Shown here: piece by piece, positions 4,452-26,700 of the stretch
Layout: every line of letters begins with the position of its first letter
Numbering within the stretch: the stretch's first letter is position 1
Source: a virus
Length of the DNA stretch: 64,000 bases
Direction: 5' to 3' (one strand)
IMG/VR virus record: IMGVR_UViG_3300045988_132810
Location: 32,001 to 96,000 of that record
Program-made: the position numbers and the translations under genes
The notes under the pieces: generated by a model
Databases searched by the model: none
What the model was told of the DNA's origin: nothing
The model's input: only the letters and a program-made list of their open reading frames with translations

Positions 4452-4457
4452 AATTTA

Positions 4458-4483
4458 GGGGAGAACTTATCTCCCCATTTTTT
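4458..4483 (+). terminator. rho-independent terminator after ligA
   Basis: 7-bp GC-rich stem GGGGAGA/TCTCCCC with a 5-nt loop, followed by ATTTTTT. Confidence 0.7.
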
Positions 4484-4497
4484 ATGCATTTAACTAC

Positions 4498-4525
4498 TTG
4501 ACAAATCAAAATTTTGTGATATTAT
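4498..4525 (+). promoter_or_regulatory. sigma-70-type promoter with extended -10
   Basis: TTGACA, a 16-nt spacer, then TGaTATTAT. The spacer holds the palindrome CAAAATTTTG. Confidence 0.65.
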
Positions 4526-4538
4526 ATGTATAGTTGAA

Positions 4539-4552
4539 CAATACAAAATTAT
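4539..4552 (+). promoter_or_regulatory. conserved intergenic 14-mer CAATACAAAATTAT (copy 1)
   Basis: Exact 14-mer lying between the promoter and the ribosome-binding site of the 4566 ORF. Confidence 0.5.
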
Positions 4553-4565
4553 AGTTAAGGAGTTG

Positions 4566-4742
4566 ATGCATGATATGATTGAATATAATAATTGCTGTGT
4601 CGCATGTGGTGAAATTATTCCTGAAGGAAGACAGGTTTGCTCACAGTGTGAGAGAAAATATGAAGCAAAAGATGATGCGACTGATAATATTCAGAAAAAA
4701 CAAAACACATTTATAAATTACATTAAAAAATATTTTATTTAA
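4566..4742 (+). CDS. small zinc-ribbon protein (58 aa)
   Basis: AAGGAG upstream. Product MHDMIEYNNCCVACGEIIPEGRQVCSQCERKYE... has two CxxC pairs. Below the ORF-track cutoff. Confidence 0.45.
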   Translation: MHDMIEYNNCCVACGEIIPEGRQVCSQCERKYEAKDDATDNIQKKQNTFINYIKKYFI

Positions 4743-4757
4743 GAAAGGATTTACATT

Positions 4758-5000
4758 ATGAAAAAGAACAACACGAACAATCAGAACGCGACGCTAATGG
4801 TTACTAGTCTAGAGGATAATGGCGACTATATTCTCTCGTATATTCCGCTGTCTATTGACATGGATCTGCTTCAGCATATTCTAGCTGAGGGCAAGAGCAC
4901 TAATAGCGAAGTCGTGCAGTACGTGCTAGATTGTGACGAAAAGACTTATTGGAAGGATATGTGGGAGAGTTTCAAGGAGGAGCCAGAGAATGACGCATAA
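4758..5000 (+). CDS. hypothetical protein
   Basis: 80-aa ORF with AAAGGA upstream. Confidence 0.55.
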   Translation: MKKNNTNNQNATLMVTSLEDNGDYILSYIPLSIDMDLLQHILAEGKSTNSEVVQYVLDCDEKTYWKDMWESFKEEPENDA

Positions 5001-10532: not shown

Positions 10533-11552
10533 CATGCTGTTGCTTATAGTCTGTTATCTTATCTTACCGCATGGATGAAAGTATATTATCCAGTAGAATT
10601 TATGACCGCACTTTTGACAGCGAAGTCGGACAATACTTCAAAGCTTAGTGTTATTATTACAGATTGTCATAGAATGGGAATCAAAGTACTTCCGCCTAAG
10701 ATTAATGAGTCTGAATTTTCTTTTAAGGCTAAGCCAGAGACTAAAGAAATCCTTTTTGGTTTTGGCGCAGTAAAAGGCATTGGCGAGTCAGTAATTACTA
10801 AGATTATTGAGAACCAGCCATATAGCAGCTTTGATGATTATCTGTCAAAAATCCAAGATAAAGCGGCCACAATTGCTCTAATTAAAGCTGGTGCTTTCCC
10901 TACTTCTAATAAAATGAAGCTGATGAGAAAGTATGCTACCTTATCGTATGATAAGAAAGAATATAAACCAGTTCAATCATATGGGACAAAAGCAAAATTA
11001 TTGCTAAATTGGGATATCAACGTAGATGATTACAAGGCTGGCAAAAAAGTAGATAAAGAAGCCGTGCTGCAATTGTATAATGCAAAGCGTAAAGAAAAGT
11101 TCGACCAAGTGCAAGAGGTCAAATATAAAGCGTATATGACAGAGTTCCAACAAAAATATGCTAGAGATCAATTCCTATGGGAATACGAAAGCTTATCAAT
11201 GTTTTTGACAGAGAACCCATTGCAAGAAGGTGTAGATTTAATAAACGCTAATTGGGATGATGTCCCGAATGGAGAAAAAACAGTTGTCTTGTGTGTTATA
11301 TCAGACATAAAGCGCAAGAAAGATAAAAACAACAATCCCTTCGCATATCTAGATTTGATTACTTCTGATAGAATTATTGAAGCGACTATTTGGAGTAGAC
11401 AACTAAAAGAATATTTTGATCTTATCTCGAAGGGCAAGTGCCTTGCAATTCTTGGAAGGAAAGAAGACGATCATTTGTTCGTTGAAAAAGTTAAACCCTA
11501 CACCGTTTGGCTCGAAAAAATAAAACATACACGTGCCAAAAAGACATCTTGA
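10533..11552 (+). CDS. dnaE: DNA polymerase III alpha subunit, exon 2
   Basis: Continues as HAVAYSLLSYLTAWMKVYYPVEFMTALL..., then an HhH-like segment (GFGAVKGIGES) and an OB-like C-terminus. In frame with exon 1 once 10323-10532 is removed. Confidence 0.9.
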   Translation, partial: HAVAYSLLSYLTAWMKVYYPVEFMTALLTAKSDNTSKLSVIITDCHRMGIKVLPPKINESEFSFKAKPETKEILFGFGAVKGIGESVITKIIENQPYSSFDDYLSKIQDKAATIALIKAGAFPTSNKMKLMRKYATLSYDKKEYKPVQSYGTKAKLLLNWDINVDDYKAGKKVDKEAVLQLYNAKRKEKFDQVQEVKYKAYMTEFQQKYARDQFLWEYESLSMFLTENPLQEGVDLINANWDDVPNGEKTVVLCVISDIKRKKDKNNNPFAYLDLITSDRIIEATIWSRQLKEYFDLISKGKCLAILGRKEDDHLFVEKVKPYTVWLEKIKHTRAKKTS

Positions 11553-11577
11553 CAGCACAAAATTATTGTGATATAAT
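11549..11577 (+). promoter_or_regulatory. sigma-70-type promoter with extended -10
   Basis: TTGACA, a 17-nt spacer, then TGaTATAAT. The spacer holds the palindrome CACAAAATTATTGTG. The -35 element overlaps the dnaE stop codon. Confidence 0.7.
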
Positions 11578-11610: not shown

Positions 11611-11976
11611 ATGGATGAAAATGAAAACTATGAACAGCCAGAGAGCGTTGAAAGCGTAGAAGAAGCAGACGAGCAAGCACCGCCAGCATCTGAACTTGCA
11701 AACGACGAGCTCAAAGAAGCAATTACTACACAGATGAAGAAGGTACAGATGGCGGCTTTGCTCAGTGGCTCGAAAGCAATTTGTGGCGTTGTGCTTCAGT
11801 ACATCGCGGAGTTCAAGCGTCAACCGGGCAAGAAGTCGGCGAACGACTATAAGAGACTAATCAAGAAGATTGAACATTTTTGTTCAATTAGTCTGGGCAA
11901 GGACGTTAACGAGAATGGTGATATTGTTGATGTAAAGAAGGAAGAAGAAAACACTTCCGAACCAGAGCAGGATTAA
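11611..11976 (+). CDS. hypothetical acidic protein
   Basis: 121-aa ORF with AAGGAG upstream and very acidic termini. Confidence 0.6.
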   Translation: MDENENYEQPESVESVEEADEQAPPASELANDELKEAITTQMKKVQMAALLSGSKAICGVVLQYIAEFKRQPGKKSANDYKRLIKKIEHFCSISLGKDVNENGDIVDVKKEEENTSEPEQD

Positions 11977-11990
11977 CAATACAAAATTAT
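11977..11990 (+). promoter_or_regulatory. conserved intergenic 14-mer CAATACAAAATTAT (copy 4)
   Basis: Exact 14-mer between the stop of gene 11611 and the ribosome-binding site of gene 12002. Confidence 0.5.
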
Positions 11991-12001
11991 TGGAGGCAAC
12001 T

Positions 12002-12592
12002 ATGCAGAAGTTTACTGTTGCTCTAGATTGTGATGAGGTACTTAATAATCTCATTGAGAAAACTCTAGAGCTATATAACACGAGACATGACACAGAACTA
12101 ACGACAGAGATTTTCACGCAATATGACTTTTACAAATGCCTTCCATTTGAAGTAGCTGAGGAACTAACTTCTATTTTTATGGAGAAAGAGCTGTGGGATT
12201 CACTATCCCCAGCTCCTGATTCTCAGTGGGGTGTTAAGAAGCTAATTGATAATGGGTATGATGTCTACGTTGCAACAGCAACGCATTACTCAAATTTTGC
12301 GTGGAAAGTTGATTGGTTCGCTAATAACTTCCCATTTATTGACCAGAAACATATTATCTGTATTCAAAACAAGTCGCTATTGCATGTAGATGTACTTGTT
12401 GATGATTGTGCAGAGAATTTAATGGCTACAAATTATGCGGTTGATAGAGTGCTTCTTGACAAGCCATGGAATCGAAACGTACATGATGATGTGTATGGAA
12501 TTTACAGAGCTAATAACTGGGAAGAAATTGTAGATTATGTGAATGAACTATATAAAGAAAACCAAGGGCTTTATTTGATGGAGGGATGCTAA
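12002..12592 (+). CDS. 5'(3')-deoxyribonucleotidase (HAD / NT5C-like)
   Basis: HAD motif I ALDCDEV near the N-terminus, plus VLVDDCAENL...LLDKPWNRN, typical of the NT5C family. GGAGG upstream of ATG 12002. Confidence 0.7.
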   Translation: MQKFTVALDCDEVLNNLIEKTLELYNTRHDTELTTEIFTQYDFYKCLPFEVAEELTSIFMEKELWDSLSPAPDSQWGVKKLIDNGYDVYVATATHYSNFAWKVDWFANNFPFIDQKHIICIQNKSLLHVDVLVDDCAENLMATNYAVDRVLLDKPWNRNVHDDVYGIYRANNWEEIVDYVNELYKENQGLYLMEGC

Positions 12593-13837
12593 TTGATTGT
12601 AACTAAGCGTGATGGACGAAAGGTAGAATTTGATAAAACAAAGATCGAGAACGCTATTTTAAAAGCACATAAAAGTATTTACCATGGAGAGAATTTTGAA
12701 GATATTCAAGATTTTGCTGCAAAAGTTGCTTTCGATATCGAGTCAAGCAATTCTGCTTCTGAACTTTCCGTTGAAGACATTCAGGATATGGTTGAACGAA
12801 AGCTAATGGCGTCTCGGTTCAAAACAACTGCCAGAGCATATGTAAATTATCGTTTCTTGCATGAAATGGCGAGAAATCAATATCAAGAGCTAATGCAGAC
12901 CGTGTCAGAAAAGCTAACAGCGAATAATATCCAAAACCAAAATGCAAATGTTGACGAAGCTTCATTTGGTGGCCGTATTGGAGAGGCGAGCGATGTTGTG
13001 ACAAGACGTTATGCTCTAGAATACCTTGTCTCACCAATGGCAAAGGCCAACCATGAGAATAATGAGGTTTACATTCATGACCTTAATGCTTATGCGGTTG
13101 GTTCTCATAACTGTCTTAGCATTCCGTTCGACGATCTGCTTGCGAATGGATTCAATACTAGACAGACGGATGTGCGTCCTGCACAAAGTATTAATACGGC
13201 ATTTCAGCTTGTTGCGGTTATCTTTCAACTTCAGAGCTTACAACAGTTTGGCGGCGTAAGTGCTACGCATTTAGACTGGACGATGGTTCCTTATGTAAGA
13301 AAGAGCTTTTATAAGCACTTTAAGGATGGGGTCAAATATTGCCTACGAGATGAATGGGACGAACATTGGGACAGCGACTTTAATGATTCTCGTCCGATTG
13401 ACTGGGATGAATATAAAAACTATCCAGAGGCATATGAGTATGCACTGGATATGACAACAAAGGAAATTTATCAGGCCGTTGAGGGAATGTACCACAATTT
13501 AAATACACTTCAAAGTCGTTCTGGAAATCAGCTCCCATTTACATCAATTAATTATGGTACTTGTACGCTTCCAGAAGGACGTATGGTAACTAAAGCACTA
13601 CTTGATGTTTCTATCAAAGGCATTGGCAAACTTCATCGCACTAGTATTTTCCCATGTGGAATCTTTCAGTGCATGAAGGGAGTAAACCGCAAGCCAGAAG
13701 ATCCGAATTATGATCTATTCCAGTTGGCTCTAAAGTCTACAAGTCTTAGACTTTATCCTAATTATGCCAATGTAGATTGGAGTAATAATGCTGGATATGA
13801 CATTAATGATCCAAGAACGTACTTCAGTACCATGGGT
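12593..13837 (+). CDS. nrdD: anaerobic ribonucleoside-triphosphate reductase, exon 1
   Basis: TTG start after GGAGGG. N-terminal ATP-cone (IVTKRDGRKVEFDKTKIENAI). The ORF reads on into non-conserved sequence after ...YFSTMG. Confidence 0.9.
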
Positions 13838-14167
13838 AAGCGTAAACTTATAGCTCATGTAAAACCTTTTGAACCTCGCCAGAGGGTGTCTAATTTAGGC
13901 TAACGGTTAGGACTCTACGAGTTGAGACCGTGCTAAGTAATTAAGAATAGATTATTTCAGGGCAATGGATGGTGATATGTGCGACAATTTATAAAATAAC
14001 TATTCTTAATTAAAAGTGTATCGACTATCCCTGATGAATGTATGGGAGTAGGGGCAGAGATTGGCGCTGCCGTTGTTTTAGGAAACGAAGCAACTGAGAA
14101 CCGAAGCGGAAGGCTATCGAAAGATAGAAGATATAGTCAGTGCAGATGGCAACATCTGATAAACACG
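13838..14167 (+). ncRNA. putative ORF-less group I intron in nrdD (330 nt)
   Basis: Excision gives YFSTMG|CRTANGYD in frame. The exon ends in U and the intron ends in G. 7-bp P1: CAUGGGU (13831-13837) pairs with GCUCAUG (13853-13859), with U.G at the splice site. S-element-like AAGATATAGTC at 14128-14138. GAAA tetraloop hairpin at 14114-14127. Perfect 13-bp stem 13938-13950 / 14000-14012. Confidence 0.85.
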
Positions 14168-15166
14168 TGTAGAACAGCAAATGGATATGACATTAATGGT
14201 TTTGGTCAGCTAAAAGACGGTAGAGGAAATATCTGCCCTGTGACAATCATTATGCCAACATTGGCAATGGAAGCAAAAGAAGCTGCTCTCAAAAATTCAG
14301 AGCCTTTTGAAGAAGATTTAGAAGGATTGGCCGTTGATAATTTCATGAAACTTTTGAATGAAAAAATCAATGAAGCAAAAGATATGCTTCTTGAACGTTT
14401 TGATTGGATTTGTTCTCAATCTCCAGAAGCGGCAAAGTTTATGTATGAAAATAATGTTATGGCTGGATATGTACCAGAAGAAGGTATTCGTTCTGCTTTA
14501 AAACATGGAACTTTAGCACTAGGCCAATTAGGTTTAGCCGAAACACTGCAAATTCTCATTGGTTGTGATCATACAGAGCCAGAGGGAATGAAATTGGCAA
14601 AGCACATTGAGCAACTATTCAAAGATAGATGTGCAGAGTTTAAGCAAGAATATCATCTCAACTTTGGTGTATATTATACACCTGCAGAGAATCTTTGTTA
14701 CACTGCTATGCAGAAATTTAAAATGAAGTATGGAGAAATTCCTAATGTGTCTGACAAAGACTTCTTTACTAATTCAATTCATGTTCCTGTTTGGAAAGAA
14801 GTAAATCCATTTGAGAAGATTGATATTGAATCACAGCTAACAGGATATTCAAATGCAGGATGCATTACTTATGTTGAATTAGACTCTGGAGCAAAAAACA
14901 ATGTTAAAGCTCTTGAAACAATTGTAAATTATGCGATGAATAAAGATATACCTTATTTTGCTTTGAATGTCCCAAACGACCAGTGTATGAACTGTGGATA
15001 TTGCGATGAAATGAACGATGTTTGCCCAATGTGCAACAGTAATGATATTAAAAGGTTGCGTCGTGTAACCGGATATTTGACAAATGATTACAAAACTGCA
15101 TTTAATAAGGGCAAGCAACAAGAAGTTGAAATGCGTGTTAAACACGACAAAATTATTAGTAGGTGA
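14168..15166 (+). CDS. nrdD: anaerobic ribonucleoside-triphosphate reductase, exon 2
   Basis: CRTANGYD...GRGNICPVTIIMPTLA, a C-terminal Cys cluster (CMNCGYCDEMNDVCPMC) and the glycyl-radical motif RRVTGYL. Confidence 0.9.
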   Translation, partial: CRTANGYDINGFGQLKDGRGNICPVTIIMPTLAMEAKEAALKNSEPFEEDLEGLAVDNFMKLLNEKINEAKDMLLERFDWICSQSPEAAKFMYENNVMAGYVPEEGIRSALKHGTLALGQLGLAETLQILIGCDHTEPEGMKLAKHIEQLFKDRCAEFKQEYHLNFGVYYTPAENLCYTAMQKFKMKYGEIPNVSDKDFFTNSIHVPVWKEVNPFEKIDIESQLTGYSNAGCITYVELDSGAKNNVKALETIVNYAMNKDIPYFALNVPNDQCMNCGYCDEMNDVCPMCNSNDIKRLRRVTGYLTNDYKTAFNKGKQQEVEMRVKHDKIISR

Positions 15167-15171
15167 TTCAT

Positions 15172-15711
15172 ATGAATTATTTAGGAATCAATAAATGCTC
15201 AATCGCAGACGGCCCCGGAGTACGAGTAGTACTCTGGGTGTCTGGATGTAATGTACATTGTAATAATTGTCAAAACCCTCAGTCATGGGATTTTAATGCG
15301 GGCGAACAATTTGATGATCTTGCGAAGCAAAAGCTGTTTGACGCATTAAATAAGCCATGGGTACAAGGTTTAACATTATCTGGTGGCCATCCTTTAGAAT
15401 ATGAAAATCTGCAAGAAGTATATTGTATCATTAATGAATTTAGAGAGAAATTTCAAGACAAAGATATCTGGCTATATACCGGATACACATTAACAATCAA
15501 TGACTTTGATACATCGGTTGATGTTTGTTTCGACAATAGTCTATTGACAAATTACATTCTTGCAATGTGCGATGTTGTAGTTGATGGCCCATATATAGAT
15601 TCTATGCGAGATATTACATTACCATTTCGTGGGAGCACAAATCAGCGTCTTATTGACGTTCATGAGACAATCAAACAACAAGAGATTGTTTTATACAATA
15701 CAAAACTATAA
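15172..15711 (+). CDS. nrdG: anaerobic RNR activating enzyme (radical SAM)
   Basis: DGPGVRVVLWVSGCNVHCNNCQNPQSW (CxxxCxxC cluster). AGGTGA upstream of ATG 15172. Directly follows nrdD. Confidence 0.9.
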   Translation: MNYLGINKCSIADGPGVRVVLWVSGCNVHCNNCQNPQSWDFNAGEQFDDLAKQKLFDALNKPWVQGLTLSGGHPLEYENLQEVYCIINEFREKFQDKDIWLYTGYTLTINDFDTSVDVCFDNSLLTNYILAMCDVVVDGPYIDSMRDITLPFRGSTNQRLIDVHETIKQQEIVLYNTKL

Positions 15712-15728: not shown

Positions 15729-16031
15729 ATGGGTGATATTACAAGAGAGAAGACAATTGAAGAACTAGAAGAGGAACTTAAGACAGCATCTGAAGAATAC
15801 AAGAGACTTAGCTCACTAGTTAAGCAGAAGAAGGATGCTGAAGAGGAAGAGAGAAATAAAAAGATCGAGGCTGCAAAGAAGAATCGTGCAGCAACTATTG
15901 AAAAAATGCTAACAGATGTAGATAATGAGATCAAGAAATATCTTGAGGATTATGGCACTTTCCGCATCAATAAGAGCTTCTATTATCTAAATTATATTTT
16001 TAACGGCAAGAGTCCAATTTGGTTTTGGTAA
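15729..16031 (+). CDS. hypothetical coiled-coil protein
   Basis: 100-aa ORF rich in Glu/Lys with heptad-like sequence. Confidence 0.5.
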   Translation: MGDITREKTIEELEEELKTASEEYKRLSSLVKQKKDAEEEERNKKIEAAKKNRAATIEKMLTDVDNEIKKYLEDYGTFRINKSFYYLNYIFNGKSPIWFW

Positions 16032-16045
16032 TGGAGGGCTTGCTT

Positions 16046-16537
16046 ATGAACGCACATATTAAGTTTGCAAAGACAAGACCAGATGCAAAGATCCCTAGTA
16101 AGCGGCAAGGGGATGGATGCTATGATCTTTATGTTTGCTTCGATGAAGAATTTGTTGTGATTCAGCCTCATACAGTCAAGCTAGTTCCAACAGGAATCTG
16201 TAGCACTTTTGATAGCAATTACCGCATTGGGTTTAGAGAACGCGGAAGTAATACAAAGTCCGCAATGTTCGTTATGGCTGGACAGATTGATTCTAACTTT
16301 ACAGGAGAGTGGTTTGTAGCGCTCTATAATGGCAATGACATTCCTATCGAAATTACCAAAAATGTTTCAGAAGTTACAAAGGAAGAAGATTTCATTCGTG
16401 TTCCATATAGCAAGGCTGTTGCACAGTTTGCTGTAGAAGAAGTGCCGCAGGTTGAGATCGAAGAAGTCGATGTAGACGATATTACCAATCTCAAGACTGA
16501 GCGCGGCGCAGGAATGCTTGGGAGTAGTAATAAGTGA
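16046..16537 (+). CDS. dut: dUTP diphosphatase
   Basis: Trimeric dUTPase motifs: DGCYDLY, GFRERGSNTKS, GQIDSNFTGEW and a C-terminal RGAGMLGSS. GGAGGG upstream of ATG 16046. Confidence 0.85.
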   Translation: MNAHIKFAKTRPDAKIPSKRQGDGCYDLYVCFDEEFVVIQPHTVKLVPTGICSTFDSNYRIGFRERGSNTKSAMFVMAGQIDSNFTGEWFVALYNGNDIPIEITKNVSEVTKEEDFIRVPYSKAVAQFAVEEVPQVEIEEVDVDDITNLKTERGAGMLGSSNK

Positions 16538-16578: not shown

Positions 16579-17172
16579 ATGAAGAAAAAGCCACTAGGAT
16601 ATCTTGGAGGAGATATAATGAGCTTCGGCTCAAATCTTGCAAGGCAGTATGAATATGATAAGTTTCTTAAAATGGGTCTGCCTGTGGAAGTATACAGCCC
16701 TGTAATGAATAAATCTATTAATGATAAATCTAATATGACAGAAGAAGAAAACAATCACCTTGCAGAAAAGATTACAGAAGCAGATATTGACCGTCTTTGG
16801 AATAGTGATTTTGTCGTTATGTGCCCTGAACAAAGTGCAATTGGTTCAATGTGTGAGACTGGTTGCCTATTCGGTTGGAAGTATATGGCAGACAAGCTTA
16901 CAGAGATCATCACAGAATGCGAAAATAATCACGCCCCATCTGAAGGGGCACTAGCTTGTCTAAAGAGAGAAATTAATCGTATTGCCGATAAACAAAATTA
17001 TTTTCATTACTTTGATATTCGCACAAATCATCTTAATGAAAAGGATTGGCGTAGAAGTTTCAGTATTAATCAATTGCTATATGGCATGATCCTTTATGCA
17101 GCTAAAAATGGCGATTTCGAAACATTTGATGAAATATTAGAGCATTTGGAGGGATTATATGGGAACAAGTAA
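16579..17172 (+). CDS. nucleoside 2-deoxyribosyltransferase-like protein
   Basis: AAGGAGAGG upstream of ATG 16579. N-terminal GYLGGDIMSFG and DIDRLWNSDFVVMCPEQSAIGSMCETGCLFG resemble the NDT-family pattern (YxAGxxF ... DxGTxxExG) as I remember it. Confidence 0.5.
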   Translation: MKKKPLGYLGGDIMSFGSNLARQYEYDKFLKMGLPVEVYSPVMNKSINDKSNMTEEENNHLAEKITEADIDRLWNSDFVVMCPEQSAIGSMCETGCLFGWKYMADKLTEIITECENNHAPSEGALACLKREINRIADKQNYFHYFDIRTNHLNEKDWRRSFSINQLLYGMILYAAKNGDFETFDEILEHLEGLYGNK

Positions 17173-18412
17173 TATGATTTATGGAATTGGCGACAAGCCG
17201 CCGTTTGGGAAAATGATACTCTTTGGAGTACAAATGGTGTTGTCTGTGTTCGTTGCCACAGTGCTTATTGCAAACATTTGTGGAATTGCTACGTCTGGAG
17301 CACTTATAGGAGCAGCACTTTCAACTTTTATTTACATCTTTATAACTAAAGGCCAATCTCCTATGTTCCTAAGTAACAGCGGAGCCTTCGTCGCACCAGT
17401 ATTGTTTGCACTTAGTATAGGTGGTTATACTGGTATAGCAATTGGAGGTTTAACGGCATGTATTGTATATTGTATTTTGGGATTCATCTTCACTAAAATT
17501 CCATACCAATCAATTTACAAGGTGTTCCCTCCAGCTCTTATTGGCGCTGTCACAACAGTAATTGGAGTGAATCTAATGGGATTCATTTCTGGCTATGTTG
17601 GAGAAACTGGACAGTGGGGAATCGTTGTGGCACTAATTACAACATTCTCTATTGCACTTATTTCTCATTATGCTAAAGGTATTGTGAGAATACTGCCATT
17701 TTTGCTTGGTATATTAATTGGATATGCAATCGCCGTACTCCTTACAGTTACAGGAGTATGTGCCCTTGTAGACTTTTCCGTATTTAATAATCTTAAATTT
17801 GTACAAATGCCAGATTTTGCTTTTACTCATTGGGGAGCAATTGAATGGAGTACTATTATCCCTATAGCTGTTATGTTTATAGCATATACTGTGTCTGCTT
17901 GTATGGAAGCTCTTAGTGACCATGCAGCACTAGGCGGAATTATCGGAATAGATCTTTATTCAAAGCCCGGACTTGGGAGAATCTTCTTTGGTGAAGGACT
18001 AGGCAATTTAATTAGTGCATGCTTTGGCGGTCTTGGCTCATGTAGTTACGGAGAAAGTGTGGCGACGATTGGATTCAGTCGTGTAGCATCTGTATGTGTA
18101 ACAGCAACCGCAGCAGTTCTACTCGGACTACTTGGTTTTGTTGCTCCAGTTCAAGCATTTATCGCTTCAATTCCAAGCTGTGTATTTGCAGGAGCGGCTA
18201 TTATTCTTTATGGCTTTATCGCATGTTCTGGTGTTAAGATGCTACAGAAAGTAAATCTTAATGTACAGAAGAATCTGATTATAGTATCTGCAGTTTTGTC
18301 TCTTGGCATCAGTGGGCTAGTTGTTGGTGGTAAAATAATATCATTCTCTGCAACTGCACTAGCTTTGATTGTCGGCGTAATTCTTAATCTAATTCTTCGT
18401 GACAAGGAGTGA
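17159..18412 (+). CDS. nucleobase:cation symporter-2 family permease (uracil/xanthine permease-like)
   Basis: 417-aa polytopic membrane protein. Segments such as SNSGAFVAPVL and VFPPALIGAVTTVIGVNLMGF closely resemble the UraA-type SSFAFISPVL and LFPPAAMGAIVAVIGLELAGV. Confidence 0.8.
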   Translation: MGTSNMIYGIGDKPPFGKMILFGVQMVLSVFVATVLIANICGIATSGALIGAALSTFIYIFITKGQSPMFLSNSGAFVAPVLFALSIGGYTGIAIGGLTACIVYCILGFIFTKIPYQSIYKVFPPALIGAVTTVIGVNLMGFISGYVGETGQWGIVVALITTFSIALISHYAKGIVRILPFLLGILIGYAIAVLLTVTGVCALVDFSVFNNLKFVQMPDFAFTHWGAIEWSTIIPIAVMFIAYTVSACMEALSDHAALGGIIGIDLYSKPGLGRIFFGEGLGNLISACFGGLGSCSYGESVATIGFSRVASVCVTATAAVLLGLLGFVAPVQAFIASIPSCVFAGAAIILYGFIACSGVKMLQKVNLNVQKNLIIVSAVLSLGISGLVVGGKIISFSATALALIVGVILNLILRDKE

Positions 18413-18417
18413 CAAAT

Positions 18418-18966
18418 ATGCACACAATTTTCCTAATTGTTGGCAAGAGTGGGTCTGGAAAAGACTCACTCGTTAACCAGCTATGTAAAGAACATGGATA
18501 TAGACAGCTTAAATCATATGCAACCCGCGCTCGTAGAGATGGAGAGGGAGATACTCATACATTTATTACACCAGAGGAAGTAGCTCAGTATAAAGATCAA
18601 ATGGTTGCTTATACGTGCATCTCTGGTTATGAATATTTCTCAACAAAGCAGCAATTACTAGATTCAGATTTTTATGTAATCGACTATAGAGGGATCGAGT
18701 ATATGCACAATCTCTCGCTTGATCTTTCTGATGTTCGATTCGTAACTATCTATATTCACGTACCAGATGAAGTTCGTGAAGAACGAGCCATTAATGGACG
18801 AAAAGATGATGCACTAACCTTCTATAAACGTTGTTTTAATGAAAATGAACAGTTCACAGAAATGATAATGAGAGATGATTTTGATTACGCAATTTCAAAT
18901 ATTAATTTTGATAAAGCATACAAGGTTCTTAAAACAATTGTAGAGGAGGAGCTAAAAAATGATTAA
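18418..18966 (+). CDS. guanylate-kinase-like P-loop nucleotide kinase
   Basis: P-loop GKSGSGKDS, followed by SYATRARRDGEGDTHTFITPEE (compare guanylate-kinase S-TTR-PR-GE--G--Y-F). AAGGAG lies 8 nt upstream of ATG 18418. Confidence 0.65.
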   Translation: MHTIFLIVGKSGSGKDSLVNQLCKEHGYRQLKSYATRARRDGEGDTHTFITPEEVAQYKDQMVAYTCISGYEYFSTKQQLLDSDFYVIDYRGIEYMHNLSLDLSDVRFVTIYIHVPDEVREERAINGRKDDALTFYKRCFNENEQFTEMIMRDDFDYAISNINFDKAYKVLKTIVEEELKND

Positions 18967-19168
18967 ACGCAATATTGTAGAAACTATTTATGAATATGAC
19001 AAAGACGGCAAGTTGACGAGAAAGTCCGTCACAGAAACGCATGAGACAGATGACGAAACGAGATATCCTCTTACCAATTCTATGCTCACAACTTTATACA
19101 ACAATTGCACCACAACGACTTCGTGTGAATGCCAAGACAAGTGTGGTTCTTGTAATGATGATTTTTGA
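18959..19168 (+). CDS. hypothetical protein
   Basis: 69-aa ORF overlapping the previous stop. Last gene before the terminator. Confidence 0.45.
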   Translation: MIKRNIVETIYEYDKDGKLTRKSVTETHETDDETRYPLTNSMLTTLYNNCTTTTSCECQDKCGSCNDDF

Positions 19169-19207: not shown

Positions 19208-19248
19208 ATGTCGGTAGTGTAATCTTGCATTACCGACATATTTATTTA
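19208..19248 (+). terminator. rho-independent terminator ending the early operon
   Basis: 9-bp stem ATGTCGGTA/TACCGACAT, with possible further inner pairs, followed by ATTTATTTAT. Confidence 0.55.
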
Positions 19249-23769: not shown

Positions 23770-26700
23770 TTATTGTATTGCGACAATAGATAAGCTTCCA
23801 TTGCTTTCTATTTGAAGTTTAAAATTGCCTAAAGAAATAGATGATAGTTTCTCTTCTGTGCCAACTTTTAAACTACCATCAATTTCTGCTTGTTTCATGT
23901 ATGCAGTATCATTCGCAAAATAAGTAATTGGAATACCAAATTTAATTTCTGGATCTGCAAAATTTTCACCAATTGAACTTATCGGCTTATATTGGGCAGA
24001 CAAAAAATCTGGATTTTTATAATAGTCGTAATAAGTATCATTGTTTTCTTGGTGGATATATAAAATATAATCATAATTATTATATCTATTGCTTTGTGTT
24101 GGTTCAGACTCTACTGTTATAATTCTCGCCTTACGACAGAATTCAATTCTTTGTGCAGAAACTCTTGAGAAATATTCCCCAGAACCGTTGTTTTCACCAA
24201 CAACTAAACCATTATCGCCATCAAAACTAAAGAAAGAAAGCTTCTCGGCGGCATCGCCTTTATTCATAGTTACCGTTCCATCTTTATCAACCATAAAAGC
24301 ATAAGAACCATCTTCCTGCTCGCCAATACAAATTTGGCCACCAACTATACTACTACCTTCGACCAGTCCAGCACGAACACAGCCTGCTAGAATGCCCCAA
24401 TATTCTTCTCCATCAATAGTATAATTACCAAATACAGACTTAGTCGTCTGGAAATTGTCGTCTGAGTATAGGAATTTATTGTTTGTAATCCAGCCCTCAT
24501 GATTATCTAATACGCCATCTACAACTTTACGAAGGTGAATACCATAATTATCCCACGACACACTTTGTCCAGCAGAATTTGATTTAATTGAAGTCGTTGC
24601 GTCAATTAATCCGTTTCTAATCCTCTCATCAATAGCAGTGGCTACGTCATAGCCTTTTTGCCAATAAGAAGAACCACTAGCAACCGCTTTACCAGCGCTA
24701 ACTGCTTGAGACAACAAATCAGCATGGATATCGCCCTGATCCTTCGCAGATAATAAGTCTCCGAAAGTACATGAGAAATTACTTAAATCAGAAAAATTCA
24801 ACTGGACTTCGAGCAATCTTGCTTTCTTGATGAAGTCATCTCGCATTTTAACTTTTACAAAATTGCCAAGGCTAAACTGATTCAGAATAGGAGCAAACTC
24901 AGGCATTGCATAGATATTTCTCATAGAAGCAGAGAAAGACAATTTTGGCTGAGAAATCTTTTTTAATTCTTTTTGTCCAGCGACTAACAATTCTTTCTGC
25001 GTATTAATCTTGTCCAAGTCAGTATCAATTTCTGAAACATAGAAGCAATCATCCGAATATTCATCTTCTCTTAGGAACAAGGACAACCTATCCAAATTCT
25101 CTGGAGTAAAATTTTTGTTAACACTTATGTCCTCTGATATTAACGTGATTTCATCATTTACTTTTTGGATCTCCGCTTGAATATCTTCAACCTTTTTTTG
25201 TTTATTCTCTAGTTCTTTATTAATGGCATTAAGCTTATTAAGATTATTTATATAAGCCTTGTATTCATCACTATCTGCGTCCTTTTTGTCCCATTCAGCA
25301 GCAATTTGTACATCTTGGATTGACAAGTATATATCTTTTGTTTCTTTGAGAGAATTAATACCTTCTGCCCCAACAACTAAGTTTCTTTCATTCCAAACAT
25401 AAGTATACTTTTGTTCATCTTTGCCCGTCTGCTTGTTCTTCACAATAGACACTTTAATCTCGCATACATAATACTTAGAAGCAACTTCATTTCCATTGTT
25501 GTCTTGGTTGACTATTTTATAAACTTCACCAAGGTTATCTATACTTGCTTCTGGCAAATAAAGTCCTGCTTGTTCAAAGTTCTCTGGAGTAACAATCTTT
25601 TCTGTAATTTTATATTCGTCAGGGACAGAATTTTCTTCAGTTAACCGACTGTCTATAAGTTCGTATAGCCTTTTTAATGTTTCAGTATAGCCTTCTACCC
25701 ACACAACATAATCTCCGGCTTTTGGCTCGTAAGAATCCAGTTTTGGAGAGACATCTGTTCTTAATATTTTGCCATCTCCCGCATTAGACTCAACAACTGA
25801 CAAAGCGTTTTCGGCCTCGATAGTCTTTACAATAAGTTTATCTCCATTTTCAAGCGCGGCATACACTGTCAATGTTTTTTTAGTTTTGTCGTACAGATAT
25901 CCATCTTCACCTTCTGAAATTGTTTCAGTTAACATCGAATCAGGGGATTTCTTTTCAACGATATGCTTTGAACCAATGTCGTTTTGTAGCATAAAATGAT
26001 TATCTAAAAATTCAGCGGAAACTGTATCTCCAATTCCTAAACTAGTGGTAATAGTTAATATGCTAGAATTAAATGTGTAATCTTCAGTAATATTGTCATT
26101 AATTCTAACAGAAGTTAATGCTTTATTACTATTTGAAACAACAAATGATTTGTTAATAGTTTTAAACAAAACTATATCGTCCTGACTGAGCCTACTATCA
26201 TTAACAACTAAACTATTTTCATTTTTGTCATAAGTATAATCATTAACGTCAACAGTTAGCTCTTGTGTCTTCCCGTCATTTGAATGGCGCAAAATACACA
26301 CTGCCGCAATATTTTCATTTGCAGACAATTGTTTAACATCGAAATGAGTGTCAATAGACGCTACAACCACAGAGCTATTTATCAAAAGATTGTCCAGAGA
26401 AATAGTTAATTTTTTAATACTATAATCGTACTCATATTGTTTAACACCAATTTCTTTGCCATCAACGAGCACAGATACTATTTTGTCTTTTGGCAGAGAT
26501 AGAGAAAAAGATTTTGGAACAAATTCTATTACAATTTGTTCTCCACTAAACAATAAGTCTAAATTAGAAACTGTGACAACATTATCCGAAAAAGTGTAGT
26601 TAACTTTCTGAGAATTAATTTTGACAGATAATATTTGTTTATCGTACTGTTGGCTTTCAAACTTATTATTAACTAAATTTATAACAACTCTATCGCTTGG

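What the first reader, a model, noticed from the sequence alone, without database searches (positions are those of the whole stretch)
16579..18966. Phage-encoded trio: deoxyribosyltransferase-like protein, uracil/xanthine-type permease and a kinase
Three consecutive, translationally coupled genes:
- an NDT-like protein (DIDRLWNSDFVVMCPEQSAIGSMCETGCLFG);
- a 417-aa NCS2 permease closely resembling UraA in its signature segments;
- a guanylate-kinase-like P-loop protein.

They sit directly after a 5'(3')-deoxyribonucleotidase, nrdDG and dut. Together they could form a base-import and base-swap route: dNMP to deoxynucleoside, exchange with an imported base, then re-phosphorylation. That could be ordinary salvage, or a way to introduce a particular (even non-canonical) base into the dNTP pool.

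A polytopic nucleobase transporter is an uncommon gene for a phage. The pathway interpretation is inference.
Basis: partly seen in the sequence, partly recalled or inferred. Interest (0 to 1): 0.65.

Follow-up and report, generated by a model that had tools for sequence, protein, structure and literature searches.

The report
Phage base importer coupled to deoxyribosyltransferase
A 152-kb gut phage carries its own membrane importer for a DNA/RNA base, fused in expression to a base-swapping enzyme and a nucleotide kinase; the importer-enzyme pair recurs in dozens of related phages that all lack thymidylate synthase, so it is most likely a way to make DNA precursors (probably thymidine nucleotides) from scavenged bases.

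Summary
Three tightly packed genes lie at 16579-18966:
- an NDT-family protein;
- a full-length NCS2 nucleobase permease;
- a guanylate-kinase-fold NMP kinase.

They end a 7.7-kb promoter-to-terminator operon that also holds NT5C, nrdD/nrdG and dut. The phage genome is complete, at 152 kb.

The conserved core is the NDT-permease pair. It is adjacent in 71 of 79 related viral loci, down to 38% permease identity, and also in Clostridium phages c-st and D-1873. There it sits with a thymidine kinase and, in c-st, an NT5C homologue.

The permease keeps both uracil-binding glutamates of UraA. Every NDT-paired phage copy has Gly or Ala where uracil-specific UraA has Phe73. The uracil/thymine carrier RutG has Ala there.

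None of 19 genomes searched, 18 of them with an NDT-paired permease, encodes ThyA or ThyX.

Best reading: base import plus deoxyribosyl transfer as salvage, most likely of thymine.

- The kinase is an NMP kinase, not a nucleoside kinase, and it lacks the guanine-recognising residues.
- The NDT-like protein lacks the Asp that binds the 5'-OH, so base exchange on dNMPs (DmtZ-like) remains possible.

Nothing supports a non-canonical base in this genome. I rate it a new variant of a known kind.

The parts
11549..11577 (+). Consensus sigma-70-type promoter (TTGACA-17-TATAAT with TG), the likely start of the nucleotide-supply operon
   Evidence: 12 of 12 matches, the best in the region. It is a pattern match only; function is not shown.
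11611..11976 (+). orf121, the first gene of the operon, with no family match
   Evidence: It is conserved in relatives.
11990..12592 (+). NT5C-type 5'(3')-deoxyribonucleotidase (HAD fold, DCDEVL motif). It could supply deoxynucleoside donors from dNMPs.
   Evidence: PF06941 at 2.5e-25. A homologue, CST101 (YorS-like), lies near the permease cluster of phage c-st.
12593..15166 (+). nrdD, the anaerobic ribonucleotide reductase with an ATP cone. It is read as two ORFs (12593-13903 and 14042-15166) because of an insert that earlier notes call a group I intron.
   Evidence: the two pieces match PF13597 at 1-268 and 262-562, plus ATP-cone and Gly_radical. I did not test the intron boundaries here (notes e1-3639200 and e1-3455370).
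15163..15711 (+). nrdG, the activating enzyme
   Evidence: PF13353 at 1.5e-42.
15729..16031 (+). orf100, a small charged protein with no family match
   Evidence: It is 89-98% conserved in relatives.
16019..16537 (+). dUTPase-like protein that makes dUMP, directly upstream of the NDT-like gene. By eye its sequence shows dUTPase-type motifs.
   Evidence: PF00692 at 32 bits. TIGR00576 at 4.9e-14, below the equivalog cut-off. The motifs GCYDLY, GQIDSNFTGE and RGAGMLGSS were read by eye.
16579..17172 (+). NDT-family protein of 197 aa, the proposed base-exchange enzyme. It keeps Tyr8, Pro41, Asp69, Glu93 (the nucleophile) and Asn164. It lacks the Asp that binds the 5'-OH (LlNDT D92), which is Ala here.
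17159..18412 (+). NCS2/NAT nucleobase permease of 417 aa, the proposed importer of the acceptor base. E250 and E299 correspond to UraA E241 and E290. Gly replaces UraA F73.
18418..18966 (+). Guanylate-kinase-fold NMP kinase of 182 aa. The P-loop and the NMP-phosphate site are kept. The guanine-recognising Glu and Tyr are replaced by Ala and His.
18959..19168 (+). orf69, a small protein with a Cys-rich C-terminus. It is translationally coupled to the kinase and is the last gene of the operon.
   Evidence: no family. It is 91-100% conserved in relatives.
19208..19239 (+). Intrinsic-terminator-like hairpin (14-bp stem followed by a T-rich tail) that ends the operon

Best explanation
The trio is the distal part of a phage nucleotide-supply operon. 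Its functional core is a two-gene cassette.

**Proposed mechanism (all steps inferred).**
1. The NCS2 permease imports a free nucleobase, using the proton gradient.
2. The NDT-family enzyme, through its conserved Glu nucleophile, moves a 2-deoxyribosyl group from an available deoxynucleoside onto that base.
3. Donor deoxynucleosides can come from dNMPs through the NT5C nucleotidase in the same operon, for example dU from dUMP made by the dUTPase and the phage dCMP deaminase.
4. The new deoxynucleoside is phosphorylated by a host nucleoside kinase. Phage c-st carries its own thymidine kinase for this step.
5. The GK-fold NMP kinase then takes the dNMP to the dNDP.

**Most likely base.** The imported base is probably a uracil-type pyrimidine, and thymine is the best guess. 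That would give a folate-independent route to dTTP for phages that have a ribonucleotide reductase but no thymidylate synthase.

**Shown:** gene identities, conserved catalytic and binding residues, co-conservation of the pair, and absence of ThyA, ThyX and TK.

**Inferred:** direction of transport, the substrate, and every enzymatic step.
For: **1. Pairing.**
- An NDT-like gene lies next to the permease in 71 of 79 viral loci, with permease identity from 100% down to 38%.
- Four of the eight exceptions are cut by contig ends.
- The pair occurs in different phage backgrounds. One set has a DnaE/nrdDG/integrase module. Another has ATP-ligase, ClpP and PhoH.

**2. Independent lineage.**
- C. botulinum phage D-1873 has permease, then NDT (phrog_1817 at 1e-45), then tdk.
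- Complete c-st has CST091 permease, CST093 NDT and CST095 TK in one cluster, and CST101 NT5C 5.7 kb downstream.

**3. Permease type.**
- The best matches are UraA and the uracil permease models.
- The nearest cellular relatives are about 40% identical, and one sits behind PyrR (234 bits against a cut-off of 138).
- E241, E290, Y288, G289 and Y342 are invariant.

**4. Binding-site change.**
- All NDT-paired phage permeases have Gly at UraA F73 (Ala in L113). Cellular relatives and the NDT-less viral contigs L111 and L112 keep Phe.
- RutG, the uracil/thymine carrier (PMC6308229), has Ala there. Uracil-specific UraA has Phe.
- The tree allows up to three separate origins of this change.

**5. 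Missing enzymes.** No ThyA or ThyX was found in the window's genome or in 18 other phage genomes searched, 14 of them at least 90% complete. Seventeen of the 18 carry an NDT-paired permease; L111 has no NDT. TK occurs only in c-st.

**6. NDT catalytic set.** Tyr, Pro, Asp and Asn plus the Glu nucleophile are invariant or nearly so across 24 family members. The family profile hits 7m5h at 7e-34. All top Foldseek hits are NDT or DNPH1.

**7. Expression and selection.** The genes share one promoter-to-terminator unit and are translationally coupled. dN/dS is 0.05-0.17.
Against: - No transport or enzyme assay exists for any member. The substrate call rests on one binding-site position and on gene context.
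- The NDT-like protein lacks the Asp that binds the nucleoside 5'-OH (LlNDT D92). It is Ala here, and Pro or Gly in the other alleles. That is what dNMP-acting relatives look like (PMC12884076).
- This genome has no nucleoside kinase, so the scheme depends on an unidentified host kinase.
- The kinase is not part of the conserved core.
- Absence of ThyA and ThyX may simply be a lineage trait, since the genomes are related.
- Other site residues (D254, S300) differ from both UraA and RutG.
- The Foldseek match of the NDT model is weak: E of 0.01-0.1 and TM of 0.34-0.45.
Confidence: 0.55

Rival explanations
1. Base exchange happens on nucleotides, not nucleosides, in the manner of DmtZ. The dUTPase makes dUMP. 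The NDT-like enzyme moves deoxyribose 5-phosphate from a dNMP onto the imported base, for example dUMP + thymine giving dTMP + uracil. The adjacent non-guanylate NMP kinase then makes the dNDP. Neither a nucleotidase nor a nucleoside kinase would be needed.
For: - The gene order dut, NDT, permease, NMP kinase is tightly coupled.
- The NDT-like protein and most phage family members lack the 5'-OH-binding Asp. Bona fide NDTs (7m5h, 7o62, 8qc0, LlNDT) and the TK-linked D-1873 copy keep it.
- Phage DmtZ is a natural dR5P transferase encoded next to a Dut-like gene, and dNMP-acting members have small uncharged residues at that site (PMC12884076).
- The permease-adjacent kinase keeps the NMP-phosphate site but has lost the guanine-specific residues.
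- This genome has no nucleoside kinase.
Against: - The second 5'-OH ligand, Asn164 (LlNDT N123), is invariant. DmtZ lacks both ligands.
- NT5C in the same operon, and TK plus NT5C in c-st, point to nucleoside-level chemistry.
- The type A tblastn query returned no Gordonia or Arthrobacter phage among its 471 hit records. I made no direct comparison with a DmtZ sequence.
Confidence: 0.2
2. The genes are neighbours without a shared pathway. The permease simply raises uptake of uracil or another base, which host phosphoribosyltransferases turn into NMPs for RNA and, through NrdD, for DNA. The NDT-like protein has a separate role, such as dNMP hydrolysis, pool balancing or counter-defence. The kinase is a general dNMP kinase.
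For: - The cellular relatives are PyrR-linked uracil permeases.
- phrog_1817 proteins occur in hundreds of phages that have no NCS2 permease, including Staphylococcus, Vibrio and Clostridium phages.
- The kinase moves about within the module.
Against: - The pair stays adjacent over deep divergence, in unrelated phage backbones, and while NDT alleles are swapped.
- A binding-site change in the permease tracks NDT pairing.
- Other phage NDT genes also sit beside small carriers, for example a PQ-loop protein in phage CS25.
Confidence: 0.13
3. The permease imports a non-canonical base. The NDT-like enzyme and the altered-specificity kinase channel it into the dNTP pool, and the phage DNA is modified.
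For: - Loss of the stacking Phe enlarges the binding pocket.
- The kinase has a non-guanine base pocket.
- There is a precedent for NDT-family loading of a non-canonical base (PMC12884076).
- Five of 14 related genomes carry a PurA/PurZ-like gene. In one it lies beside a second small NDT, so members of this group may modify their DNA.
Against: - This genome and its closest relatives have no PurZ-like, TGT/DpdA or thymidylate-synthase-like gene.
- In the PurZ-like relative, the small NDT next to the PurZ-like gene is a different gene from the permease-linked one.
- A phage that depends on an environmental supply of an unusual base would be fragile.
- In c-st the cluster holds a thymidine kinase gene. 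By family knowledge that enzyme acts on thymidine and deoxyuridine.
Confidence: 0.07
4. The permease is a lysogenic-conversion gene (a moron) beside the integrase. It is expressed from the prophage and helps the host scavenge bases.
For: - The trio lies about 1 kb upstream of xis, attP and int.
- The phage appears to be temperate.
Against: - The permease has no promoter of its own and is translationally coupled inside a replication-phase operon.
- In more distant phages it stays with NDT and nrdDG and not with an integrase.
- No prophage copy was found in 400 sampled Clostridia genomes.
Confidence: 0.05

Closest known systems
Clostridium botulinum phages c-st (CST091-CST095, CST101) and D-1873 (CLG_B2244-B2242)
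   Same: - An NCS2 permease (phrog_20031) is followed by a phrog_1817 NDT-like gene.
- An NT5C/YorS homologue is also present.
- The backbone is a large phage that shares SPbeta-type replication genes (YorF, YorI and YorS homologues).
- The permease also has Gly at the UraA F73 position.
   Different: - The permeases are only about 22-24% identical.
- The partner kinase there is a thymidine kinase, not a GK-fold NMP kinase.
- Their NDT keeps the 5'-OH-binding Asp.
- The genes are annotated but, as far as I could find, were never studied.
Bacterial NDT-based deoxynucleoside salvage: Lactobacillus NDT/PDT, and Borrelia burgdorferi BB0426 with its purine permeases (from my own knowledge and note e1-1934185)
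   Same: Imported free bases are attached to deoxyribose by an NDT with a Glu nucleophile. Tyr7, Asp72, Glu98 and Asn123 of LlNDT are all conserved here.
   Different: - Here the genes are encoded by a virus.
- The enzyme and the carrier form one translationally coupled cassette.
- Asp92 is missing.
- The window protein has a helical insert of roughly 50 residues relative to the shorter family alleles and only weak structural matches.
E. coli UraA (uracil-specific) and RutG (uracil/thymine) NAT/NCS2 symporters; the upp-uraA and pyrR-pyrP 'trapping enzyme + permease' operons
   Same: - The alignment covers the whole length of UraA, which by family knowledge has 14 TM segments.
- Both substrate-binding Glu residues are kept.
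- The small residue at F73 resembles RutG.
- The permease is genetically coupled to the enzyme that would consume the imported base.
   Different: - Identity is about 30%, and H245 is Asp and N291 is Ser.
- The score is below NCBIfam's uracil-permease cut-off (208 against 477 bits).
- The trapping enzyme is an NDT, not a phosphoribosyltransferase.
DutZ-DmtZ of PurZ0 phages (Gordonia phage Ghobes, Arthrobacter phage Wayne; PMC12884076)
   Same: - An NDT-superfamily gene lies directly beside a Dut-like gene in a phage nucleotide module.
- A free base is loaded onto deoxyribose (phosphate).
- The 5'-OH-binding Asp is missing.
   Different: - No PurZ is present here.
- The Asn of the 5'-OH pair is retained.
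- I made no direct sequence comparison with DmtZ. The type A tblastn query returned no Gordonia or Arthrobacter phage record.
- DmtZ systems have no transporter.

Membership tests
Nucleoside 2-deoxyribosyltransferase family (PF05014; LlNDT as reference) | Significant profile match | tested here: met
   - PF05014 alone fails, at 19.8 bits against a cut-off of 28.8.
- phrog_1817 matches at 8e-36.
- The 24-member family profile matches the NDT-family structure 7m5h at 7e-34 over its full length.
Nucleoside 2-deoxyribosyltransferase family (PF05014; LlNDT as reference) | Glu nucleophile (LlNDT E98), with Tyr7, Asp72 and Asn123; the Pro of transferases | tested here: met
   E93, Y8, D69 and N164 are invariant. 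P41 is present in at least 90% of 24 sequences and aligns with LlNDT P42.
Nucleoside 2-deoxyribosyltransferase family (PF05014; LlNDT as reference) | Asp that binds the nucleoside 5'-OH (LlNDT D92, six residues before the Glu) | tested here: not met
   - The residue is Ala in the window protein.
- It is Pro or Gly in the other gut-phage alleles, and Ala in the Staphylococcus and Clostridium CS25 phage copies.
- Asp is kept in 7m5h, 7o62, 8qc0, LlNDT and the D-1873 copy.
Nucleoside 2-deoxyribosyltransferase family (PF05014; LlNDT as reference) | NDT fold | tested here: inconclusive
   - The AlphaFold model has pLDDT 81.5 and pTM 0.75.
- The top 22 Foldseek hits are all NDT, PDT or DNPH1, but they are weak: E of 0.01-0.6, TM of 0.3-0.45, about 100 aligned residues.
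- This cannot separate an NDT from a DNPH1-type enzyme.
Nucleoside 2-deoxyribosyltransferase family (PF05014; LlNDT as reference) | Deoxyribosyl transfer between a deoxynucleoside and a base | not testable with these tools
   An enzyme assay is needed.
NCS2/NAT nucleobase:cation symporter, uracil-type (PF00860; UraA/PyrP/RutG) | Profile match over the full length | tested here: met
   - PF00860 scores 170.8 bits against a cut-off of 27, over profile positions 2-384 of 389.
- The alignment to UraA covers residues 6-407.
NCS2/NAT nucleobase:cation symporter, uracil-type (PF00860; UraA/PyrP/RutG) | Substrate-binding Glu in TM8 (E241) and Gly-Glu in TM10 (G289-E290); Glu, not Gln, at the first NAT-signature position | tested here: met
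   E250, G298 and E299 are invariant across 34 representatives.
NCS2/NAT nucleobase:cation symporter, uracil-type (PF00860; UraA/PyrP/RutG) | Phe73 (TM3), His245 and Asn291 of UraA | tested here: not met
   - The residues here are Gly, Asp and Ser.
- Asp and Ser are shared with the PyrR-linked cellular relatives.
- Gly (or Ala) is specific to the NDT-paired phage copies, and RutG has Ala.
NCS2/NAT nucleobase:cation symporter, uracil-type (PF00860; UraA/PyrP/RutG) | NCBIfam equivalog cut-off for uracil permease | tested here: not met
   NF007995 scores 208 bits against a cut-off of 477. TIGR00801, the NCS2 superfamily model, scores 191 against 292.
Guanylate kinase (PF00625; TIGR03263) | Fold-level profile match, P-loop, and the NMP-phosphate site (Ec T41, R42, R45, E48, Y82) with the LID arginines | tested here: met
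   - PF00625 scores 40.6 bits against a cut-off of 25.2.
- G14, K15, T36, R37, R40, E43 and Y73 are invariant. R120, R123, R128 and R138 are conserved.
Guanylate kinase (PF00625; TIGR03263) | Guanine-recognising Glu (Ec E73) and Tyr (Ec Y54); equivalog score | tested here: not met
   - The residues are Ala and His in all permease-adjacent (type 1) kinases. The type 2 kinases upstream of nrdD in relatives keep Glu and Tyr.
- TIGR03263 scores 56.5 bits against a cut-off of 160.
DmtZ-type deoxyribose-5-phosphate transferases (NDT superfamily; PMC12884076) | No Asp or Asn at the 5' pocket; encoded beside a Dut-like gene; acts on dNMPs | tested here: inconclusive
   - The Asp is absent but the Asn is retained.
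- dut lies directly upstream.
- I compared no DmtZ sequence here, and activity cannot be tested with these tools.

The most novel reading that the evidence does not exclude
The permease-linked NDT-like enzymes, which have lost the Asp that binds the 5'-OH, may be natural phosphodeoxyribosyltransferases. In that reading the run dut, NDT, permease, kinase is a self-contained, folate-independent bypass of thymidylate synthase:
1. dUTP is converted to dUMP.
2. Uracil is swapped for imported thymine directly on the nucleotide.
3. A dedicated non-guanylate GK-fold kinase makes dTDP.

The same device could load any imported base, including a non-canonical one, into phage DNA precursors.
Probability: 0.2. 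Interest if true: 0.85.

Novelty: new variant of a known kind. Interest (0 to 1): 0.6.

Why it matters
- Large phages are known to rebuild host nucleotide metabolism from the inside. This cassette suggests that a widespread group of gut and rumen phages also reaches outside the cell, with a carrier of its own dedicated to feeding one enzyme.
- If the substrate is thymine, many 120-240-kb phages with a ribonucleotide reductase can do without thymidylate synthase. Phage replication would then depend on free bases in the gut.
- The cassette also offers a natural, compact 'import and deoxyribosylate' module, and perhaps natural phosphodeoxyribosyltransferases, of interest for making nucleoside analogues.
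- The cassette has only two or three genes and should be portable to E. coli, so the questions are directly testable.

Tried and rejected
1. **DNA-level search** of the region against 50,697 phage records found only a 239-bp, 66% match. No cultured close relative exists.
2. **Campylobacter phages A11a and A18a.** Hits to the permease (25%) and kinase (26%) looked like a link to phages that replace dG. The records are marked UNVERIFIED and carry no annotation, and the hit statistics closely mirror those of the Salmonella xanthine permease and gmk. I treated them as host-like DNA and dropped them.
3. **AzgA-like purine carrier.** I considered this because of the 'GES' motif. I rejected it because UraA and the uracil models are the best hits, and no purine-carrier (AzgA-type) structure appeared among the PDB hits.
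4. **Riboswitch search** upstream of the cellular relatives found only an unrelated glycine riboswitch. PyrR adjacency was more informative.
5. **Prophage or host search** in 400 Clostridia genomes gave a best identity of 42%. The host is not identified.
6. **Literature searches** on phage plus NCS2 or uracil permease plus deoxyribosyltransferase found no description of the pair. Botou et al. 2018 (RutG) and Kaminski & Labesse 2013 are not held.
7. **Staphylococcus phage NDT neighbours.** The small 'membrane proteins' gave only sub-threshold Pfam hits.
9. **Not used:** the second structure job and the representative-protein search. The folds of the permease and the kinase were not in doubt.


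Full report
**Setting**

The window is bases 32001-96000 of a complete 152,388-bp virus record with direct terminal repeats.
- The + strand arm carries replication and nucleotide genes: NAD ligase, an SF1 helicase, a split DnaE, a dCMP-deaminase-like gene and a tRNA-repair-like set.
- The - strand carries large structural genes.
- A tyrosine integrase and an excisionase-like gene follow the finding.

**Observation**

The three ORFs are present as described.
- The ribosome-binding sites support ATG 16579 for the NDT-like gene, ATG 17159 for the permease (14 nt overlap with the NDT stop) and ATG 18418 for the kinase (SD inside the end of the permease gene).
- A fourth small gene, orf69, overlaps the kinase stop.
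- A 12/12 sigma-70-type promoter at 11549-11577 and a strong hairpin terminator at 19208-19239 bracket one unit. Its order is orf121, NT5C, nrdD, nrdG, orf100, dut, NDT, permease, kinase, orf69. No comparable internal signals were found.
- The promoter and terminator are pattern matches, not demonstrated signals.

Profile searches support all three assignments.
- Permease: PF00860 at 5e-50.
- Kinase: PF00625 at 40.6 bits.
- NDT-like: below Pfam's cut-off, but phrog_1817 at 8e-36 and a family profile against PDB 7m5h at 7e-34.
- Against relatives, dN/dS is 0.05-0.17 for all three genes.

**What is conserved**

The permease belongs to a very large, unnamed metagenomic family. The top 120 hits are all at least 70% identical, many on contigs of 100-255 kb.

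Two scans of IMG/VR gave 79 distinct loci with 38-100% permease identity.
- Seventy-one loci carry an NDT-like gene adjacent to or within about 1.2 kb of the permease, usually immediately upstream.
- Four of the eight exceptions are cut by a contig end.
- Two more (L111, L112) carry a cellular-type permease.

Among phages that are otherwise at least 95% identical, three NDT alleles only 21-25% identical to each other replace one another. Sometimes a homing endonuclease follows. The permease and kinase stay put.

In a clade with 42-45% permease identity the backbone is different: ATP-dependent ligase, ClpP, PhoH and a DNMK-like kinase. The pair persists there too.

The GK-fold kinase is adjacent only in the closest clade. 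In the 60-70% clade a different GK-type gene sits upstream of nrdD. Further out, none lies within 6 kb.

The conserved unit is therefore NDT + permease. The kinase is a local addition.

**An independent, cultured example**

Clostridium phage D-1873 has the permease, then an NDT-like gene (phrog_1817 at 1e-45), then thymidine kinase.

The complete c-st genome has:
- CST091 'uracil permease', CST093 'nucleoside 2-deoxyribosyltransferase' and CST095 'thymidine kinase' in one cluster;
- an NT5C/YorS homologue (CST101) 5.7 kb downstream.

These permeases are only about 22-24% identical to the window's.

By family knowledge, thymidine kinase acts on thymidine and deoxyuridine.

**The permease**

- It aligns along the whole of UraA. 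It scores best against the uracil-permease models, though below their equivalog cut-offs.
- The nearest cellular proteins are Clostridia and Christensenella permeases at 35-42% identity. None of 400 sampled Clostridia genomes holds a closer copy.
- One of these cellular genes lies directly behind PyrR (234 bits against a cut-off of 138). That is the classic pyrR-pyrP arrangement.

Mapping onto UraA's site gave three results.
- E241, Y288, G289, E290 and Y342 are invariant in all 34 representatives.
- H245 is Asp and N291 is Ser or Gly, in phage and cellular relatives alike.
- F73 is Phe in UraA, in all cellular relatives and in the NDT-less viral contigs. It is Gly in every NDT-paired phage permease, Ala in L113 and Gly in D-1873.

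E. coli RutG transports uracil and thymine, whereas UraA is uracil-specific (PMC6308229). RutG has Ala at this position.

The tree places the NDT-paired permeases in at least three lineages: the main clade with the clade at about 44% identity, L113, and D-1873. The change may therefore have arisen more than once, although long branches make this uncertain.

I read this as a pocket opened for a 5-substituted uracil, with thymine the simplest candidate. It rests on one characterised example, so it is an inference.

**The NDT-like protein**

Across 24 diverse family members, these residues are invariant or nearly so:

| Window residue | LlNDT equivalent |
|---|---|
| Y8 | Y7 |
| P41 | P42, the Pro typical of transferases (PMC12884076) |
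| D69 | D72 |
| E93 | E98, the nucleophile |
| N164 | N123 |

- The AlphaFold model (pLDDT 81.5) finds only NDT, PDT and DNPH1 structures at the top, but weakly.
- The window allele has an inserted helical region relative to the shorter alleles and to 7m5h.
- One defining residue is missing. The Asp six residues before the Glu (LlNDT D92) binds the 5'-OH. It is Ala here, Pro or Gly in the other gut alleles, and Ala in the Staphylococcus and CS25 phage copies.
- That Asp is kept in 7m5h, 7o62, 8qc0, LlNDT and the TK-linked D-1873 copy.

A 2026 study showed that phage DmtZ is an NDT-superfamily enzyme encoded beside a Dut-like gene.
- It hydrolyses dAMP and transfers deoxyribose 5-phosphate onto a free base.
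- dNMP-acting members have small uncharged residues where NDTs have the Asp and Asn (PMC12884076).

Here the Asp is lost and the Asn is kept, so the choice between nucleoside and nucleotide substrates is open.

**The kinase**

It has the GK fold, the P-loop, the NMP-phosphate ligands (Ec T41, R42, R45, E48, Y82) and the LID arginines. It is therefore an NMP kinase and not a nucleoside kinase.
- The guanine-recognising Glu73 and Tyr54 of E. coli Gmk are Ala and His in all permease-adjacent kinases.
- The second kinase type, found upstream of nrdD in relatives, keeps both residues.
- Its base specificity is probably not guanine. What it is, I cannot say.

**Genome context**

- Neither this genome nor 18 other phage genomes searched (120-240 kb, 14 of them at least 90% complete; 17 with an NDT-paired permease) encodes ThyA or ThyX. 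TK occurs only in c-st.
- All controls rang as expected.
- This fits a thymine-salvage role, but the genomes are related and I lack a matched control set.
- No TGT/DpdA homologue occurs in any of 14 genomes, and this genome has no PurA/PurZ-like gene.

**Mechanism and odds**

| Reading | Odds |
|---|---|
| Permease imports a uracil-type base (thymine favoured). The NDT-like enzyme loads it onto deoxyribose from deoxynucleosides supplied by NT5C. Host kinases and the GK-fold kinase then phosphorylate it. | 0.55 |
| The same logic at the dNMP level, DmtZ-like. This would explain the gene order and the NMP kinase. | 0.2 |
| Neighbours without a shared pathway. | 0.13 |
| Import of a non-canonical base. 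| 0.07 |
| A lysogenic-conversion gene. | 0.05 |

**Novelty**

- The gene families are known. Phage 'uracil permease' and 'NDT' annotations have stood in the c-st record for years.
- NDT-based base salvage is known in bacteria.
- I found no paper that describes the conserved phage NDT-permease cassette, its site change or its link to missing thymidylate synthase.
- Other agents of this scan reported the same pairing in other genomes. Those notes are unchecked leads, and I read them after reaching my own conclusions.
- I file it as a new variant of a known kind.

Noticed in passing
L127 5685-8428 (G414, the phage of L087); also G408, G409, G410, G411: Five of 14 permease-carrying relatives encode a PurA/PurZ-like adenylosuccinate-synthetase homologue of 377-393 aa. 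In G414 it lies beside a second, 147-aa NDT-family gene (PF05014, 58 bits) and a DUF5662 gene. That resembles the PurZ0/DmtZ clusters of 2-aminoadenine phages. The window's genome has none of these.
   Followed up: partly
L001 5484-6047; L078 4371-4868; L083, L084, L103 about 4360-4868: Several relatives carry a short formate/nitrite-transporter-like gene directly after nrdG (PF01226, 70 bits). Formate is the reductant of formate-dependent class III reductases, by family knowledge. This would be a second carrier serving the same nucleotide module.
   Followed up: partly
L004 3706-6334 (also L005-L008, L010, L011, L016, L018, L019): In close relatives the ATP-cone nrdD and nrdG are replaced by a cassette of three genes: a 73-aa glutaredoxin-like protein (judged by eye, not profile-tested), a 648-aa NrdD-like protein without an ATP cone, and a 161-aa activase-like protein. 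The flanking genes stay 95-98% identical.
   Followed up: partly
L108 2167-2800; L109 4813-5460 and 6001-7260: In two relatives both the NDT-like and the permease genes contain in-frame TAG codons at positions where homologues have Gln. This points to TAG=Gln recoding in that clade.
   Followed up: partly
window 13838-14167 (nrdD); L001 1492-2286 and 3753-4343; L012 and L013 nrdD: nrdD is interrupted here by an insert of about 140-330 nt without an ORF. In relatives, inserts carry GIY-YIG or HNH genes, or an extra 1 kb or so. Some relatives (L002, L009) read straight through. Earlier notes call it a group I intron.
   Followed up: no
L013 7028-8008 (also L014, L015, L018, L020, L021): A 326-aa homing-endonuclease-like gene (phrog_3339) sits between the NDT-like gene and the permease, but only in relatives that carry the type C NDT allele. 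This suggests that the NDT allele is exchanged by homing.
   Followed up: partly
L121 3836-5270 (Clostridium phage CS25); L120 3775-5676 (Staphylococcus phage phiIPLA-C1C): In other phage families the phrog_1817 NDT gene also sits beside small membrane proteins. In CS25 an 85-aa PQ-loop (SemiSWEET-like) protein lies two genes downstream (PF04193, 36 bits). The Staphylococcus neighbours gave only sub-threshold hits.
   Followed up: partly
window 18959-19168: orf69 is a conserved 69-aa protein with the Cys-rich tail CECQDKCGSCNDDF. It is translationally coupled to the kinase and is the last gene before the terminator. It has no family match.
   Followed up: no
genome C1:18910-31477 (upstream of the window): A cluster of RNA-repair-type genes: class V aminotransferase (cysteine-desulfurase-like), RNA ligase, an RlaP-like nucleotidyltransferase, an AAA_33 kinase, and a Thg1-like protein. 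A dCMP-deaminase-like gene lies at 24245-24688.
   Followed up: no
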